Shown one piece after another: positions 1-4,273 of a stretch of 4,273 bases of DNA. A program made the position numbers and the translations under genes. Numbering within the stretch: position 1 is the stretch's first letter; each line of letters begins with the position of its first letter. This DNA comes from Qubevirus faecium: the sequence record FJ539135.1, one strand, 5' to 3'. The notes beneath the pieces were generated by a model. That model worked only from the letters and a program-made list of their open reading frames with translations. It was not told the origin of the DNA and did not search any database.

Positions 1-28
1 GGGGTAGGCCCCGTAAGGGGCCTGCCTT
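1..28 (+). promoter_or_regulatory. 5'-terminal stem-loop of the genomic RNA (likely replication cis-element); genome begins GGGG
   Basis: Seen in sequence: a6-c12 (AGGCCCC) pairs with g17-t23 (GGGGCCU), closed by a GUAA (GNRA-type) tetraloop at 13-16. Extends by U5-G24 wobble, g4-c25, g3-c26 and possibly G-U pairs to nt 1-2/27-28. Levivirus plus strands characteristically start with a G-run folded in a stable hairpin. Confidence 0.6.
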
Positions 29-40
29 CACCGCACTACA

Positions 41-46
41 GAGGAG
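41..46 (+). promoter_or_regulatory. Shine-Dalgarno sequence for the maturation gene
   Basis: GAGGAG at 41-46, 5 nt upstream of the ATG at 52. Confidence 0.7.
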
Positions 47-51
47 AATCT

Positions 52-1404
52 ATGCCAACCCTTCCGAGAGGTCTTCGCTTCGGATCGAATGGCGAGGTCT
101 TAAACGACTTCGAGGCGCTCTGGTTTCCAGAGCGCCATACCGTAGATCTAAGCAATGGGACCTGCAAGCTCACTGGTTATATCACTAACCTGCCGGACTA
201 CAGCAACACATTCCCGAATAAGGGGGTCACTGTTGCTCGTACGCCGTACAGAAGTACTGTGCCTGTTAACCATCTCGGTTACCGGCCAGTTACAACTGTT
301 GAGTACATTCCCGACGGCACTTACGTGCGCCTTGATGGGCACGTGAAGTTCGAAGGGGGCTTGGTTAATGGGTCAGTTGATCTCACGAATTTCGTGATCT
401 CATTAGCTGCTCAGGGTGGCTTCGATTACCAGTCGGTAATCGGACCTAGGTTCTCTGCGCACTTCTCCGCGTTCAGCACCAAATATGGTGTCTTGCTCGG
501 AGAAGGGAGAGAAACTCTTAAGTATCTTCTCCTGCTGCTTCGCAGAATGCGTGAAGGGTACCGCGCCGTAAGGCGTGGCGATTTCAAGCGTCTCAGGAAT
601 GTGATCTCTACGTTCGAGCCGATCTCCCCGAGAGGGAAGATGGCAAGATCAGAGTTCTCACAGACCTATCGCGACAAACTTACCGGTAACAAGGTTAAAG
701 TTAAACCAAGTGAAGGTAAGTGGAATAGCAGTAGTGCGAGTGACCTGTGGCTAGAGTTCCGTTATGGACTGATGCCTTTGTTTTATGACATTCAGTCCGT
801 CATGGAAGACTTCATGCGTGTCCATAAGAAGATCGCAAAGATACAGCGATTCTCTGCCGGACACGGTAAGCTGGAGACGGTTAGTTCGCGGTTTTACCCG
901 GACGTCCACTTCGCTCTTGAGGTCACCGCAGTGTTACAGCGGCGTCATCGTTGGGGTGTCGTATACCAGGATACTGGTTCTTATGCCACTTTCAATAATG
1001 GTCGTCTAGTCCCGGTGAAGGACTGGAAGACAGCGGCGTTTGCACTCCTTAATCCCGCTGAAGTTGCGTGGGAGATCACTCCCTACAGCTTCGTTGTGGA
1101 TTGGTTTGTAAATGTTGGTGATATGCTTGAGCAGATGGGCCAGCTTTATCGGCACGTCGATGTCGTTGACGGTTTTGACCGGAAGGACATAAGGCTTAAG
1201 TCCATATCCGTACGCGTCTTGACTAGTGACAGTGCACACGTAGCTAGTTTTACTCTACGTCAAGCACGTTTGTTGCATAGTTATTATTCGCGCGTGCATA
1301 CCGTTGCGTTTCCGCAAATTTCACCACAACTCGATACTGAGATACGTAGCGTTAAGCACGTGATCGATAGTATCGCATTATTAACCCAGCGCGTTAAGCG
1401 CTGA
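52..1404 (+). CDS. A2: Maturation (A2) protein, 450 aa; likely also the lysis protein as in Qbeta
   Basis: ORF 52..1404 with ATG start and TGA stop at 1402-1404. N-terminus MPTLPRGLRFG...LNDF..LWFP and internal blocks (LWLEFRYGLMPLFYDI, EVAWEITPYSFVVDWFVNVGD, IVDGFDRKDIRLKS, LLTQRVKR at the C-terminus) match my recollection of Qbeta A2. First gene after the 5' UTR, as in leviviruses. Confidence 0.9.
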   Translation: MPTLPRGLRFGSNGEVLNDFEALWFPERHTVDLSNGTCKLTGYITNLPDYSNTFPNKGVTVARTPYRSTVPVNHLGYRPVTTVEYIPDGTYVRLDGHVKFEGGLVNGSVDLTNFVISLAAQGGFDYQSVIGPRFSAHFSAFSTKYGVLLGEGRETLKYLLLLLRRMREGYRAVRRGDFKRLRNVISTFEPISPRGKMARSEFSQTYRDKLTGNKVKVKPSEGKWNSSSASDLWLEFRYGLMPLFYDIQSVMEDFMRVHKKIAKIQRFSAGHGKLETVSSRFYPDVHFALEVTAVLQRRHRWGVVYQDTGSYATFNNGRLVPVKDWKTAAFALLNPAEVAWEITPYSFVVDWFVNVGDMLEQMGQLYRHVDVVDGFDRKDIRLKSISVRVLTSDSAHVASFTLRQARLLHSYYSRVHTVAFPQISPQLDTEIRSVKHVIDSIALLTQRVKR

Positions 1405-1423
1405 ACTTTGGGTCAATTTGATC

Positions 1424-1822
1424 ATGGCAAAATTAAATCAGGTAACTCTTTCCAAACTTGGAAAGAACGGGGATCAGACTTTAACTCTTACACCGCGCGG
1501 GGTAAACCCGACGAACGGCGTGGCGTCGCTGTCTGAAGCTGGAGCTGTTCCGGCTTTGGAAAAGCGCGTGACTGTGTCAGTCGCGCAGCCCTCCCGTAAC
1601 CGTAAGAACTTTAAAGTTCAGATTAAACTCCAAAACCCGACTGCATGCACGAAGGACGCATGTGACCCATCTGTGACGCGATCTGCTTTCGCAGATGTAA
1701 CGCTGTCGTTCACGTCATATTCTACTGACGCAGAACGTGCGCTAATTCGCACTGAGTTAGCGGCTCTGTTGCAGGATCCCTTGATTGTCGATGCGATTGA
1801 CAACCTGAATCCTGCCTACTGA
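1424..1822 (+). CDS. cp: Major coat protein, 132 aa including initiator Met
   Basis: ATG at 1424 gives MAKLNQVTLSKLGKNG...RGVNPTNGVASLS.AGAVPALEKRVTVS..QPSRNRKN.KVQ.K.QNPTAC...CDPSVTR...LNPAY, near-collinear with Qbeta coat as I recall it. Stop is TGA at 1820-1822. The ORF track's start at 1418 is a TTG two codons upstream; ATG 1424 is preferred by homology. Confidence 0.93.
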   Translation: MAKLNQVTLSKLGKNGDQTLTLTPRGVNPTNGVASLSEAGAVPALEKRVTVSVAQPSRNRKNFKVQIKLQNPTACTKDACDPSVTRSAFADVTLSFTSYSTDAERALIRTELAALLQDPLIVDAIDNLNPAY

Positions 1823-2419
1823 GCGGCGTTACTGGTAGCCTCGTCCGGCGGTGGGGATAACCCCTCAAAGCCAGACGTTCCGGATCTTCCAGACGTCAAA
1901 CCGCCCGACGGAACGGGGCGCTATACGTGCCCCTTCGCTTGTTACCGCCTCGGTAGTATTTACGAGGTGGGTAAGGACGGTTCTCCTGACATTTACGAAA
2001 GGGGAGACGAAGTCTCGGTTACTTTCGATTACGCTCTCGAGGATTTCCTTGGGAACACGAATTGGCGTAACTGGGATCAGCGATTGTCATCATATGACTT
2101 AGCTAATCGTCGTCGTTGCCGTGGCAACGGGTACATTGACTTAAACGCTACCGCGATGCAGTCAGACGAATGTGTTCTGTCTGGCCGCTACCCGGTACGT
2201 AAGGTCAAGTTTCCCGGCGCATTTGGCTCCATCAAGTATCTCTTGAACATTCAAGGTGATGCCTGGTTGGACTTATCCGAGGTGACAGCATACCGCTCCT
2301 ACGGAATGGTTATTGGTTTCTGGACAGACTCTAAAAGTCCGCAGCTACCAACCGATTTCACGCAGTTTAACAGTGCTAACTGCCCTGTACAGACGGTGAT
2401 AATCATACCCTCACTTTAA
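1424..2419 (+). CDS. A1: A1 read-through protein (coat plus C-terminal extension), about 331 aa, made by suppression of the coat UGA
   Basis: I read the frame codon by codon from 1823 to 1966: no stop. The tracked ORF 1967..2419 (GTG start) is in the same frame as coat (both start positions are 2 mod 3), so the frame is open from the UGA at 1820-1822 to TAA at 2417-2419. Extension (..SKPD.P..P....PP.GTG.YTCPF...GNGYIDL..PGAFG..VIGFW..) resembles the Qbeta A1 extension as recalled. Confidence 0.85.
1820..1822 (+). promoter_or_regulatory. Leaky UGA stop codon of coat (programmed read-through site)
   Basis: UGA at 1820-1822, followed by G and 198 in-frame sense codons. In Qbeta the coat UGA is read through at a few percent, by tRNA-Trp, to give A1 (established knowledge). 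Confidence 0.8.
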
Positions 2420-2428
2420 GCAACTTAA

Positions 2429-2433
2429 AGGAG
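2429..2433 (+). promoter_or_regulatory. Shine-Dalgarno sequence for the replicase gene
   Basis: AGGAG at 2429-2433, 5 nt upstream of the ATG at 2439. Confidence 0.75.
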
Positions 2434-2434
2434 A

Positions 2435-2454
2435 TAGCATGTCAAAGACAGCTA
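2435..2454 (+). promoter_or_regulatory. Translational operator hairpin (coat-protein binding site) enclosing the replicase start codon
   Basis: UAGCAUGUCAAAGACAGCUA folds as an 8-bp stem (2435-2438 with 2451-2454; 2440-2443 with 2447-2450), a single bulged A at 2439 and a 3-nt AAA loop at 2444-2446. This is the same architecture as the Qbeta operator (8-bp stem, bulged A, 3-nt loop). The AUG at 2439-2441 lies in the 5' arm. Confidence 0.8.
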
Positions 2455-4169
2455 GTCGCAGAAGAGAAATTACTCAGCTATTGGGTAAGGTCGACATCAA
2501 CTTCGAAGACGACATCCATATGTCTATTGCCAATGACCTCTGTGAGGCCTACGGCATCCCGATGCTTCGTGACGCTGAGGAGTGCATTAACACCGCATTC
2601 CCAAGCCTTGATCAGAGCGCAGACACGTTTCGTGTCGAGTACTTACGCGCCGAGATCCTATCGAAGTTTGACGGGCATCCTCTTGGTATTAATACCGAAG
2701 AAGCAGCATGGGAGAAATTCCTGGCTGCCGAGGAGGGTTGTAGACGTACGAACGAACGACTGTCACAAGCTAAGTACCATGATAATTCTATTTTATCGTG
2801 GGGTGAGCGCGTAATTCATACCGCTCGCCGAAAAATACTTAAGCTAATTGGCGAGTCCGTGCCGTTCGGGGATGTGGCGTTGCGTTGCCGTTTTTCCGGC
2901 GGTGCAACGACCTCGGTGAACCGTTTACACGGCCATCCGTCGTGGAAGCATGCCTGTCCGCAGGATGTTACCAAACGCGCACTCAAGTATCTGCAAGCCT
3001 TTAAACGGGCATGCGGTGACGTTGTAGATTTACGCGTCAACGAGGTGCGCACTTCAAATAAAGCAGTCACTGTTCCGAAGAATAGTAAGACTGATCGCTG
3101 TATCGCTATCGAACCCGGGTGGAATATGTTTTTTCAACTCGGTGTAGGTGCGGTGCTACGCGATAGGTTGCGCTTATGGAAGATTGATCTTAATGACCAA
3201 TCGACCAATCAGCGTCTCGCGCGGGATGGGTCTCTGCTAAATCATTTAGCTACCATAGACTTATCCGCAGCCAGTGATTCGATAAGCTTAAAGCTAGTTG
3301 AATTGCTGCTCCCTCCTGAATGGTACGACCTTTTAACGGATCTCCGATCCGATCAAGGCGTTTTACCTGATGGACGAGTTGTGACCTATGAGAAAATATC
3401 CTCCATGGGAAATGGCTACACTTTCGAGCTTGAGTCGCTTATTTTCGCGGCGCTCGCAAGAAGTGTGTGCGAGTTACTAGAAATCGACCAATCTACTGTT
3501 AGCGTGTACGGGGATGATATAATCATCGACACTCGTGCCGCAGCTCCATTAATGGATGTCTTCGAATACGTTGGGTTTACGCCTAACAAGAAGAAAACGT
3601 TCTGCGATGGACCCTTCCGCGAATCGTGCGGTAAGCACTGGTTCCAAGGGGTAGATGTAACGCCCTTTTACATACGCCGACCAATTCGTTGCCTTGCTGA
3701 TATGATACTCGTTTTGAATAGTATCTACAGATGGGGCACTGTTGATGGCGTGTGGGATCCTAGAGCACTGACCGTATACGAAAAGTATCTCAAATTGCTG
3801 CCAAGAAATTGGCGACGCAACCGGATACCGGACGGCTACGGAGACGGAGCTCTCGTCGGATTGGCTACGACGAACCCGTTCGTTATAGTTAAGAATTATT
3901 CAAGACTATACCCGGTATTAGTTGAAGTCCAGAGGGACGTCAAGCGCAGCGAGGTAGGTAGTTATCTGTACTCCCTACTCCGCAATCGCGAGACACGTTA
4001 CAGTCCTTTCCTGCGTGACGCAGATAGGACTGGTTTTGATGAAGCGCCGCTAGCTACTAGCCTTCGTCGCAAGACAGGTCGGTACAAAGTAGCGTGGATT
4101 CAGGACAGTGCCTTCATCCGGCCCCCGTATTTCATTACGGGCATTCCCGAGGTGAAGCTTGCAAGCTAG
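2439..4169 (+). CDS. rep: RNA-dependent RNA polymerase (replicase beta subunit), 576 aa
   Basis: ORF 2439..4169, stop TAG at 4167-4169. N-terminus MSKTAS as in Qbeta replicase. Conserved blocks include CRFSGGATT, NKAVTVPKNSKTDRCIAIEPGWNMFFQLG, LATIDLSAASDSISL, VTYEKISSMGNGYTFELESLIFA, the catalytic YGDDII at 3507-3524 (GDD at 3510-3518), FRESCGKH, VDVTPFYIR and IPDGYGDGALVG. Confidence 0.95.
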   Translation: MSKTASRRREITQLLGKVDINFEDDIHMSIANDLCEAYGIPMLRDAEECINTAFPSLDQSADTFRVEYLRAEILSKFDGHPLGINTEEAAWEKFLAAEEGCRRTNERLSQAKYHDNSILSWGERVIHTARRKILKLIGESVPFGDVALRCRFSGGATTSVNRLHGHPSWKHACPQDVTKRALKYLQAFKRACGDVVDLRVNEVRTSNKAVTVPKNSKTDRCIAIEPGWNMFFQLGVGAVLRDRLRLWKIDLNDQSTNQRLARDGSLLNHLATIDLSAASDSISLKLVELLLPPEWYDLLTDLRSDQGVLPDGRVVTYEKISSMGNGYTFELESLIFAALARSVCELLEIDQSTVSVYGDDIIIDTRAAAPLMDVFEYVGFTPNKKKTFCDGPFRESCGKHWFQGVDVTPFYIRRPIRCLADMILVLNSIYRWGTVDGVWDPRALTVYEKYLKLLPRNWRRNRIPDGYGDGALVGLATTNPFVIVKNYSRLYPVLVEVQRDVKRSEVGSYLYSLLRNRETRYSPFLRDADRTGFDEAPLATSLRRKTGRYKVAWIQDSAFIRPPYFITGIPEVKLAS

Positions 4170-4189
4170 ACACTAGCTTGTGATGGGAA

Positions 4190-4208
4190 GGGCGGTCTTT
4201 GACCGCCC
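4190..4208 (+). other. 3'-UTR stem-loop 1 (8-bp GC-rich stem, UUU loop)
   Basis: GGGCGGUC (4190-4197) pairs with GACCGCCC (4201-4208) around loop UUU at 4198-4200. Located 21 nt after the replicase stop. Confidence 0.6.
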
Positions 4209-4228
4209 GAGAGGAGAAAGAAAGAAAA
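4209..4228 (+). other. 20-nt uninterrupted polypurine, A-rich linker in the 3' UTR (candidate host-factor binding site)
   Basis: GAGAGGAGAAAGAAAGAAAA is purine-only and sits between the two 3' hairpins. Confidence 0.5.
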
Positions 4229-4239
4229 CTCCCCTCAGT

Positions 4240-4267
4240 GAGGGTGGGCTCTGCTTTGCCCACTCTC
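4240..4267 (+). other. 3'-terminal stem-loop 2 (about 10 bp, 8-nt loop), followed by a single-stranded CUCCCA tail
   Basis: 4240-4249 (GAGGGUGGGC) pairs with 4258-4267 (GCCCACUCUC) with one G-U wobble; loop at 4250-4257. The genome ends ...CUCCUCCCA-3', the characteristic levivirus CCCA terminus. Confidence 0.6.
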
Positions 4268-4273
4268 CTCCCA

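What the first reader, a model, noticed from the sequence alone, without database searches (positions are those of the whole stretch)
2435..2454. Replicase start codon sits inside a Qbeta-type operator hairpin
The hairpin has an 8-bp stem, a single bulged A and a 3-nt loop, with the replicase AUG at 2439-2441 in the 5' arm and the SD immediately upstream. This is the Qbeta-style coat-protein operator rather than the MS2 style (4-nt loop). It predicts coat-dimer binding that shuts off replicase translation late in infection. The loop is AAA here, whereas the Qbeta loop as I recall it is UAA, which may shift coat affinity or specificity.
Basis: partly seen in the sequence, partly recalled or inferred. 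Interest (0 to 1): 0.5.

Follow-up and report, generated by a model that had tools for sequence, protein, structure and literature searches.

The report
Replicase operator hairpin of SP/FI-like phage
The hairpin is real and is the well-known coat-protein "operator" that switches off replicase translation in Qbeta-like RNA phages. Here it sits in a new strain of a known phage species, so it is an ordinary, already described element.

Summary
The window is a complete 4273-nt group IV allolevivirus genome (Qubevirus faecium). It is 95% identical to FI strain BR1 and 91% to phage SP.

- 4+4 Watson-Crick pairs.
- A bulged A at 2439, which is the A of the replicase AUG.
- The loop AAA at 2444-2446.
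- The Shine-Dalgarno sequence AAGGAG at 2428-2433.

It is the minimum-free-energy fold of the 20-mer (-5.9 kcal/mol, z = -4.0), of every larger context tested and of the whole genome. This architecture occurs once in the genome, against 0.018 expected.

The same hairpin lies on the replicase AUG in all 14 other allolevivirus genomes examined. The two basal pairs covary (A-U/U-A). Every difference from the Qbeta operator is either compensated or is the first loop base.

The loop is AAA or UAA in both species. This is a Ser UCA/UCU wobble, so AAA is a tolerated polymorphism. The adenines that the coat contacts in Qbeta (A+1, A+7, A+8) are all present.

The coat protein is 78% identical to Qbeta's. 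All RNA-contact residues checked are identical except Tyr89Phe and Tyr62Phe.

Coat binding itself is inferred, not tested. Verdict: observation confirmed, interpretation supported, already known, low interest.

The parts
2435..2454 (+). Replicase translational operator hairpin (20 nt): lower stem 2435-2438/2451-2454, bulged A2439, upper stem 2440-2443/2447-2450, loop 2444-2446
   Evidence: It is the MFE and centroid fold of the 20-mer, -5.9 kcal/mol, z = -3.97. Pair probability is at least 0.86 in contexts up to 1220 nt. It is present in the full-genome MFE and is unique in the genome. It is homologous and covarying in 14 other genomes.
2439..2441 (+). Replicase start codon. A2439 is the unpaired (bulged) A+1; U2440 and G2441 are the first two pairs of the upper stem
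   Evidence: The ORF runs 2439-4169. Pfam RNA_replicase_B matches at E = 9.5e-256. The same CDS start is annotated in BR1.
2444..2446 (+). Three-base loop A+6 A+7 A+8. A2446 corresponds to Qbeta A+8 (adenine pocket) and A2445 to A+7 (stacking). A2444 is the U/A polymorphic wobble base of Ser codon 2
   Evidence: Sequence. The comparison of 15 genomes shows +7 and +8 invariant and +6 either U or A. The roles of A+7 and A+8 are taken from PMC12724129 and PMC11724954.
2428..2433 (+). Shine-Dalgarno sequence AAGGAG of the replicase gene, five bases upstream of the AUG
   Evidence: Sequence. It is predicted to be paired in the 3' arm of the upstream hairpin.
2410..2433 (+). Upstream hairpin CUC-A-CUUUAAG / CAA / CUUAAAG-GAG. 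It holds the A1 read-through stop codon (2417-2419) and sequesters the SD, and lies one base from the operator
   Evidence: It is in the MFE of all contexts and of the full genome, with P at least 0.95 for the inner 7 pairs. Five of those 7 pairs change on both sides across 12 distinct sequences.
1424..1822 (+). Coat protein gene (132 aa, UGA stop read through to give A1, which ends at 2419). This is the predicted trans-acting repressor that binds the operator as a dimer
   Evidence: Pfam Levi_coat matches at E = 1.2e-56. It is 78% identical to Qbeta coat and matches PDB Qbeta coat chains, including 4l8h, at E = 2.5e-58. RNA-contact residues are conserved.
2439..4169 (+). Replicase beta-subunit gene, the regulated cistron

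Best explanation
The 20-nt hairpin at 2435-2454 is the replicase translational operator of a group IV allolevivirus (Qubevirus faecium, an FI/SP-like strain). It is orthologous to the Qbeta operator.

Proposed mechanism:
- On its own the hairpin is weak (about -6 kcal/mol), so ribosomes can open it and translate replicase early in infection.
- When coat protein accumulates, a coat dimer binds the hairpin across its beta-sheet face.
- By analogy with the Qbeta complex, A2446 (A+8) enters the adenine pocket of one subunit.
- A2445 (A+7) and the bulged A2439 (A+1, the A of the AUG) stack on the aromatic residue at position 89 of the two subunits.
- The basic 54-63 loop holds the lower-stem backbone.
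- The bound dimer locks the AUG, and sterically the adjacent SD, away from the 30S subunit and shuts off replicase synthesis.
- The same complex is a high-affinity site for capsid assembly on the genome.

Shown here: the structure, its uniqueness, its position on the AUG, its conservation with compensatory changes, and the conservation of the coat's RNA-binding residues.

Inferred by homology: coat binding, repression and the packaging role.
For: Structure and statistics.

Genome identity: 95.1% to FJ539134 (FI strain BR1) and 91% to SP over the full length. All four Pfam families expected of an allolevivirus are found.

Homology:
- A hairpin lies on the replicase AUG in all 14 other genomes, plus two metagenome contigs.
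- The five differences between the window and the Qbeta 20-mers are two compensated pairs (-4/+16 and -3/+15) and loop base +6.

RNA-level selection:
- 94.8% of cells in the operator helix are paired.
- Both basal pairs show A-U/U-A exchange.
- The covariation score is 0.398 against 0.154 +/- 0.025 in shuffles (0 of 500 reach it), and it collapses when partners are slid.
- NL95 differs from its close relative HB-P24 by a double change in the basal pair, which costs a Ser-to-Cys change in replicase.
- Of the synonymous third positions inside the hairpin, the one in the loop (+6) varies, the two in the upper stem (+9, +12) never vary, and the one in the lower stem (+15) covaries.

Coat protein:
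- N30, V32, R47, T49, S51, Q54-N61, K63, Q65, K67 and D91 (Qbeta numbering) are identical in all 12 coats. Y89 is F and Y62 is F in the window.
- The coat matches the Qbeta coat of the operator complex 4l8h.

Literature on Qbeta:
- The operator is AUGCAUGUCUAAGACAGCAU, with a 3-nt loop and an 8-bp stem. The last loop A is necessary, and A+1 and A+7 stack on Tyr (PMC12724129; PMC11724954).
- Excess coat represses the replicase cistron (PMC2978339).
- The operator contacts a capsid coat dimer in the Qbeta virion model (PMC8880383; PMC10610835).
Against: - No binding or repression measurement exists for this coat/hairpin pair, or, as far as I could find, for any group IV phage.
- The invariance of the upper stem is confounded by the conserved replicase N-terminus (Met-Ser-Lys-Thr).
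- The comparative set is small: 12 distinct sequences from about three lineages. The covariation therefore rests on a few independent events.
- The laboratory type strain SP carries a C.A mismatch in the upper stem (20-mer MFE -1.8 instead of -5.9). A perfect hairpin is thus not strictly required for viability.
- MX1 and M11 pair A+1 and bulge a C on the other strand.
- Rfam has no family for this element, so no independent model could be scored.
Confidence: 0.9

Rival explanations
1. The hairpin is a coat-independent structural attenuator. Together with the adjacent upstream hairpin that buries the SD, it simply limits ribosome access to the replicase start, and is opened by translation of upstream sequence. 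No protein is involved.
For: - The SD AAGGAG is predicted to be paired in a covarying upstream hairpin one base away, and the AUG is in the operator stem.
- In Qbeta, translation through the coat gene is reported to open the replicase start (PMC2978339).
Against: - The operator is only about -6 kcal/mol, which is weak for an autonomous block.
- Pure masking would not require an invariant 3-nt loop with A+7/A+8 or a C-G closing pair across about 32% nucleotide divergence.
- The coat's RNA-binding surface is conserved.
- This is more likely an additional layer than an alternative.
Confidence: 0.07
2. The element works mainly as the capsid-assembly nucleation or packaging site. Translational repression is secondary or negligible in this phage.
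For: In the Qbeta virion model the true operator is one of 33 stem-loops that contact capsid coat dimers in the same way (PMC8880383, PMC10610835). Operators are described as strong encapsidation sites (PMC10610835, PMC3561173).
Against: - A packaging signal has no need to lie on the replicase AUG, yet it does so in every genome examined.
- Qbeta packaging uses many operator-like hairpins of diverse sequence (PMC8880383), so packaging alone does not explain the exceptional conservation of this one.
- The two roles are not exclusive.
Confidence: 0.15
3. The apparent hairpin is a by-product of protein-coding constraint on the replicase N-terminus and has no RNA-level function.
For: The upper stem and loop lie in codons 1-4 (Met-Ser-Lys-Thr), which are conserved in all genomes except SP, which has Pro2.
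Against: - The 5' half of the lower stem is non-coding and covaries with codons 5-6.
- NL95 accepts a Ser-to-Cys change that restores pairing.
- Synonymous sites in the stem are frozen or compensated, while the synonymous site in the loop varies.
- Chance expectation for this architecture is 0.018 per genome.
Confidence: 0.02
4. The AAA loop (instead of UAA) measurably shifts coat affinity or specificity, so this is a functionally distinct operator variant.
For: An in-cell selection for Qbeta coat binders enriched UAA loops, and substitutions at the first loop position lowered activity in an engineered aptamer (PMC11724954). The group IV coat has Phe for Tyr at positions 89 and 62.
Against: - AAA and UAA both occur within each species and do not track any coat residue.
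- The predicted stability is identical.
- Only the last loop A is reported as necessary (PMC12724129).
- Qbeta coat is described as promiscuous, with a sub-optimal wild-type site (PMC7952577).
Confidence: 0.15

Closest known systems
Qbeta replicase translational operator (Qubevirus durum; coat complex PDB 4L8H)
   Same: - 20 nt with a 4+4-bp stem.
- Bulged A that is the A of the replicase AUG.
- 3-nt loop ending in AA, with a C-G closing pair.
- Identical upper stem UGUC/GACA.
- SD just upstream.
- Homologous coat protein, 78% identical.
   Different: - The two basal pairs are swapped: UA.../...UA instead of AU.../...AU, both compensated.
- The first loop base is A instead of U.
- The coat has Phe instead of Tyr at positions 89 and 62.
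Operators of deposited group IV phages (FI strain BR1, SP, NL95, FI, HB-P22, HB-P24) and metagenome contigs MAVO01000006.1 / MAVO01000019.1
   Same: The 20-mer is identical to that of BR1 and of both MAVO01 contigs. The position and architecture are the same in all of them.
   Different: - SP has C at +4, giving a C.A mismatch.
- HB-P22, HB-P24 and FI have a UAA loop.
- NL95 and FI have different basal pairs.
MX1 / M11 operators (Qubevirus durum)
   Same: Same upper stem, a 3-nt loop (AAA in MX1, UAA in M11), and the AUG in the 5' arm.
   Different: A+1 is paired, a C is bulged on the 3' strand, and the stem is 9 bp at -9.0 kcal/mol.
MS2/R17-type operator (Emesvirus)
   Same: It has the same job: a coat-dimer-binding hairpin at the replicase start, with an adenine pocket recognising a loop A and an unpaired purine in the stem (PMC3561173, PMC12724129).
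   Different: MS2 has a 4-nt loop, a 2-bp upper stem above the bulge, and the AUG on the 3' side of the hairpin. None of these holds here.

Membership tests
Qbeta-type coat-protein operator (Qubevirus replicase translational operator) | Hairpin with an eight-base-pair stem | tested here: met
   There are 4+4 Watson-Crick pairs at 2435-2438/2451-2454 and 2440-2443/2447-2450. This is the MFE and centroid fold.
Qbeta-type coat-protein operator (Qubevirus replicase translational operator) | Three-nucleotide loop | tested here: met
   The loop is 2444-2446 AAA.
Qbeta-type coat-protein operator (Qubevirus replicase translational operator) | Adenine at the last loop position (A+8), the base reported as necessary for binding, with A+7 next to it | tested here: met
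   A2446 and A2445 are present, and both positions are invariant in 15 genomes. The requirement is taken from PMC12724129 and PMC11724954.
Qbeta-type coat-protein operator (Qubevirus replicase translational operator) | Single unpaired A on the 5' strand, four pairs below the loop, which is the A of the replicase AUG (typical, but reported as not essential) | tested here: met
   A2439 is unpaired and is the first base of the ORF 2439-4169. MX1 and M11 lack it.
Qbeta-type coat-protein operator (Qubevirus replicase translational operator) | Overlaps the replicase initiation codon, with the SD immediately upstream | tested here: met
   The AUG is at 2439-2441 in the 5' arm, and AAGGAG is at 2428-2433.
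Qbeta-type coat-protein operator (Qubevirus replicase translational operator) | Positional homology with the operators of other alloleviviruses, with pairing maintained by compensatory change | tested here: met
   The position is the same in 14 genomes and 2 metagenome contigs. Two basal pairs exchange A-U and U-A, and 94.8% of cells are paired.
Qbeta-type coat-protein operator (Qubevirus replicase translational operator) | Cognate coat protein of the Qbeta type with the RNA-contact residues present | tested here: met
   The coat is 78% identical to Qbeta's and matches PDB Qbeta coat chains, including 4l8h. 17 of 19 checked positions are identical; Y89F and Y62F are conservative.
Qbeta-type coat-protein operator (Qubevirus replicase translational operator) | Specific binding of the coat dimer and repression of replicase translation | not testable with these tools
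   This needs filter binding or EMSA and an in vivo repression assay. No data for a group IV pair were found in the paper library.
MS2/R17-type operator (Emesvirus) | Four-nucleotide loop, an unpaired purine two pairs below the loop, and the AUG at the 3' side of the hairpin | tested here: not met
   The loop is 3 nt, the bulge is four pairs below the loop, and the AUG is in the 5' arm. The MS2 features are as described in PMC3561173 and PMC12724129.
Any Rfam family | Match to a curated covariance model | tested here: not met
   No match overlaps 2435-2454 even at E up to 10. The three weak hits elsewhere are chance-level. Rfam appears to hold no model for this operator.

The most novel reading that the evidence does not exclude
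The first loop base (A here, U in Qbeta) together with the group IV coat substitutions Tyr89Phe and Tyr62Phe tunes operator affinity or specificity. Group III and group IV phages would then not cross-repress each other's replicase in mixed infections. On this reading the window carries a functionally distinct operator/coat pairing rather than a neutral polymorphism.
Probability: 0.08. Interest if true: 0.35.

Novelty: already known. Interest (0 to 1): 0.1.

Why it matters
It matters little beyond correct annotation. The element is the textbook translational operator of Qbeta-like phages, and the identical 20-mer is already present in a deposited genome (FI strain BR1) and in metagenome contigs.

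It does have some practical use. This natural variant, with an intact Qbeta-type shape and an AAA loop, adds to the small set of natural sequences relevant to engineering Qbeta-coat/RNA tethering pairs and virus-like-particle packaging tags. The comparison also shows which positions nature varies: the basal pairs, the first loop base and the position of the bulge.

Tried and rejected
- Rfam scan of the whole window at E up to 10: nothing at the hairpin, only three chance-level hits elsewhere.
- Exact-pattern scan of IMG/VR with GCATGTCNAAGACAG: more than 120 hits. Of the 119 new loci held, only one encodes a replicase relative, and it was already known. This was a dead end for widening the comparison.
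- Coat-protein-based scans of IMG/VR and JGI metagenomes: only 7 loci, of which two (MAVO01 contigs) added information.
- Long-range partner:
  - A 1300-2700 fold pairs 2455-2462 with coat 1670-1677, and the complementarity is kept in all 7 group IV genomes.
  - It is absent from the full-genome MFE and shows no two-sided change, so I do not build on it.
- Full-genome partition function: timed out. I used the MFE of the full genome and partition functions up to 1220 nt instead.
- Replicase S-site or M-site: rejected. The SP record annotates these at 1331-1443 and 2629-2956, which do not overlap the hairpin.
- Loop/coat co-evolution: rejected. AAA versus UAA does not track residue 62 or 89.
- Primary papers: Rumnieks & Tars 2014, Spingola & Peabody 1997 and Friedman et al. 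2009 are not held in the library. The Qbeta contact details are therefore cited second-hand from PMC12724129 and PMC11724954.
- The statement that the bulged A and two of the three loop bases are dispensable (Witherell & Uhlenbeck 1989) rests on my own knowledge.

Full report
WHAT THE WINDOW IS

The 4273 bases are a complete allolevivirus genome.
- It has the four expected cistrons:
  - Maturation protein A2, 52-1404.
  - Coat, 1424-1822, whose UGA stop is read through to give A1, ending at 2419.
  - Replicase beta subunit, 2439-4169.
- Megablast against 50,697 phage records gives full-length matches: 95.1% to FJ539134 (Enterobacteria phage FI strain BR1, also 4273 nt), 91% to phage SP, 78-83% to HB-P22, HB-P24, NL95 and FI, and only patches to Qbeta.
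- The window is therefore a further strain of Qubevirus faecium (genogroup IV). No identical record is in the collection searched.

THE OBSERVATION

2435-2454 reads UAGCAUGUCAAAGACAGCUA.
- It forms four Watson-Crick pairs, an unpaired A (2439), four more pairs and the loop AAA (2444-2446).
- A2439 is the first base of the replicase AUG.
- AAGGAG lies at 2428-2433.

Folding results:
- RNAfold returns exactly this structure as MFE and centroid: -5.9 kcal/mol, z = -3.97, 1 of 200 shuffles as stable. It keeps it in 51-, 91- and 141-nt contexts.
- Pair probabilities are 0.86-1.0 in 220-, 620- and 1220-nt contexts.
- The hairpin is in the MFE of the whole genome.
- The exact architecture with Watson-Crick pairs only occurs once in the genome, here. 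In 1000 dinucleotide-shuffled genomes it occurs 0.018 times per genome anywhere.

COMPARATIVE EVIDENCE

I took the replicase start of 14 other allolevivirus genomes:
- BR1, SP, HB-P22, HB-P24, NL95 and FI.
- Qbeta, MX1, M11, TW18, VK, BZ1, FrBurgundy and FrSangria.
- In addition, five further SP records and IMG/VR and JGI contigs found through the coat protein.

A hairpin lies on the replicase AUG in all of them.
- The upper stem UGUC/GACA, the closing C-G and loop positions +7 and +8 are invariant, apart from the SP strain's C at +4 (below).
- The window and Qbeta 20-mers differ at five positions. Four of these form two compensated pairs (-4/+16 U-A versus A-U; -3/+15 A-U versus U-A). The fifth is loop base +6.
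- On a 14-sequence alignment (12 distinct), 94.8% of cells in the operator helix are paired.
- The whole-structure covariation score is 0.398 against 0.154 +/- 0.025 in column shuffles (0 of 500 reach it). It collapses when partners are slid by 1-3 columns.

Two details argue for selection on the RNA and not only on the protein.
- NL95 differs from its close relative HB-P24 by a double change in the basal pair. The 3' half of that change converts Ser6 (AGU) to Cys (UGU).
- Among the synonymous third-codon positions inside the hairpin:
  - The loop one (+6) varies (U/A).
  - The two in the upper stem (+9, +12) never vary.
  - The one in the lower stem (+15) covaries.

The set is small, about three lineages, so the number of independent events is low.

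A metagenome contig, MAVO01000019.1, is only about 68% identical in nucleotides to either species. Its coat is 84% identical to Qbeta's and 79% to the window's. It carries the window's exact 20-mer.

THE LOOP QUESTION

AAA is found in the window, BR1, SP, NL95, MX1 and the MAVO01 contigs. UAA is found in Qbeta, M11, FI, HB-P22 and HB-P24.
- Both forms therefore occur in both species.
- The base is the wobble position of Ser codon 2 (UCA/UCU).
- The nearest-neighbour energy is the same for both (-5.9).
- Neither coat residue 62 nor 89 tracks the loop.

The literature on Qbeta is mixed.
- The key features are given as a 3-nt loop and an 8-bp stem with the last loop adenine necessary. A+1 and A+7 stack on Tyr of the two subunits, and A+8 sits in the adenine pocket (PMC12724129, citing Rumnieks & Tars 2014 and Lim et al. 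1996; also PMC11724954). All three adenines are present here.
- A high-throughput study calls the Qbeta coat protein the most promiscuous of three phage coats and its wild-type site sub-optimal (PMC7952577).
- On the other hand, an in-cell selection enriched UAA loops, and substitutions at the first loop position lowered activity in an engineered aptamer (PMC11724954).

A modest quantitative effect of A versus U is therefore possible, but the natural distribution looks like a tolerated polymorphism.

THE TRANS-ACTING PARTNER

The window's coat is a Levi_coat protein.
- It is 78% identical to Qbeta coat.
- It matches the Qbeta coat chains in the PDB, including 4l8h (E = 2.5e-58). 4L8H is the PDB entry PMC11724954 gives for Qbeta coat bound to its RNA.
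- At 19 positions of the Qbeta RNA-binding surface, 17 are identical in all 12 coats compared. These positions are N30, V32, R47, T49, S51, the 54-63 loop, Q65, K67, Y89 and D91.
- Y89 is Phe in group IV (Ser in NL95). Y62 is Phe in the window, BR1, SP and FI. Phe keeps the aromatic ring needed for stacking.

MECHANISM

Shown:
- A weak, unique, conserved hairpin that contains the replicase AUG.
- A conserved coat RNA-binding surface.

Inferred from Qbeta (PMC2978339, PMC3561173, PMC10610835, PMC8880383):
- A coat dimer binds the hairpin late in infection, blocks 30S access and represses replicase.
- The same complex is one of the coat-RNA contacts used in assembly.

Rivals:
- A purely structural, coat-independent attenuator is unlikely as the sole explanation. 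The stem is weak, and the loop and closing pair are invariant.
- Coding constraint alone is contradicted by the non-coding 5' arm covarying with codons 5-6.
- A packaging-only role does not explain the fixed position on the AUG.
- Replicase S-site or M-site function is excluded by position.

MEMBERSHIP AND NOVELTY

- All sequence-level features of the Qbeta-type operator are met. The MS2-type features are not. Rfam has no model for it.
- Binding itself cannot be tested with these tools.
- The element is already known in kind, and in exact sequence (BR1 and the MAVO01 contigs).
- Interest is low.

SIDE OBSERVATIONS

- Immediately upstream, 2410-2433 forms a stronger hairpin. It contains the A1 stop codon and pairs the SD. 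Five of its seven inner pairs covary. The replicase ribosome-binding site is thus held in two adjacent hairpins.
- The SP laboratory strain has a C.A mismatch in the operator, seen in SP records deposited by several different submitters.
- MX1 and M11 use a different bulge.
- A possible long-range pairing of 2455-2462 with the coat gene is kept in group IV but is not in the full-genome MFE.

Noticed in passing
window 2410-2433: A second hairpin lies one base upstream of the operator: CUC-A-CUUUAAG / CAA / CUUAAAG-GAG. Its 5' arm holds the A1 read-through stop UAA (2417-2419). Its 3' arm pairs the replicase SD AAGGAG (2428-2433). It is in every MFE, including the full genome. Five of its 7 inner pairs change on both sides across Qubevirus genomes. 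The replicase ribosome-binding site is thus split over two adjacent hairpins. Ribosomes terminating A1 would open the SD.
   Followed up: partly
L002 (X07489, phage SP) 2438-2457; also L015, L019-L023: The SP laboratory strain has C instead of U at +4 (AUG CCA, Pro2). This gives a C.A mismatch in the upper stem. The 20-mer MFE falls to -1.8 kcal/mol, against -5.9 in the window. It is seen in seven SP records from several submitters, so it is not a sequencing error. The window and BR1 have the intact stem.
   Followed up: partly
L008 (MX1) 2347-2370 and L009 (M11) 2348-2371: In MX1 and M11 the A of the AUG is paired and a C is bulged on the 3' strand instead. The result is a 9-bp stem of -9.0 kcal/mol with the same upper stem and 3-nt loop. 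The position of the bulge is therefore not fixed within the genus.
   Followed up: partly
L026 (MAVO01000019.1) 1760-1779; coat 741-1142: This metagenome contig is only about 68% identical in nucleotides to both Qubevirus species. Its coat is 84% identical to Qbeta's and 79% to the window's. It may be a third lineage. It carries exactly the window's 20-mer operator but different flanks. The contig ends 11 bases after the hairpin.
   Followed up: partly
window 1424-1822 (coat residues 63 and 89 counted from Met1 = Qbeta Tyr62 and Tyr89): Qbeta Tyr89 is reported to stack on A+1 and A+7. It is Phe in the window and in all group IV coats except NL95, which has Ser. NL95 reads SGSRDV where the others read SAFADV. 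Tyr62 is Phe in the window, BR1, SP and FI.
   Followed up: partly
window 2455-2462 and 1670-1677: GUCGCAGA, directly 3' of the operator, is complementary to UCUGUGAC in the coat gene (the Pro-Ser-Val-Thr codons). The complementarity (6-8 bp) is kept in all 7 group IV genomes and is predicted in a 1300-2700 fold. It is absent from the full-genome MFE and shows no two-sided change. In Qbeta, the 1220-2620 fold pairs the homologous coat-gene region with the SD region instead.
   Followed up: partly
L005 (NL95) 2410-2429 versus L004 (HB-P24) 2405-2424: The closely related NL95 and HB-P24 differ by a double change in the basal operator pair (U-A to A-U). The 3' half of that change converts replicase Ser6 (AGU) into Cys (UGU). 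This is a compensatory change paid for with an amino-acid substitution.
   Followed up: no
window 1-4273: The genome has the same length as FI strain BR1 (4273 nt) but is only 95.1% identical to it. A metagenome contig, MAVO01000006.1, is 93.5% identical over 2717 bases. No identical record is in the collections searched.
   Followed up: no
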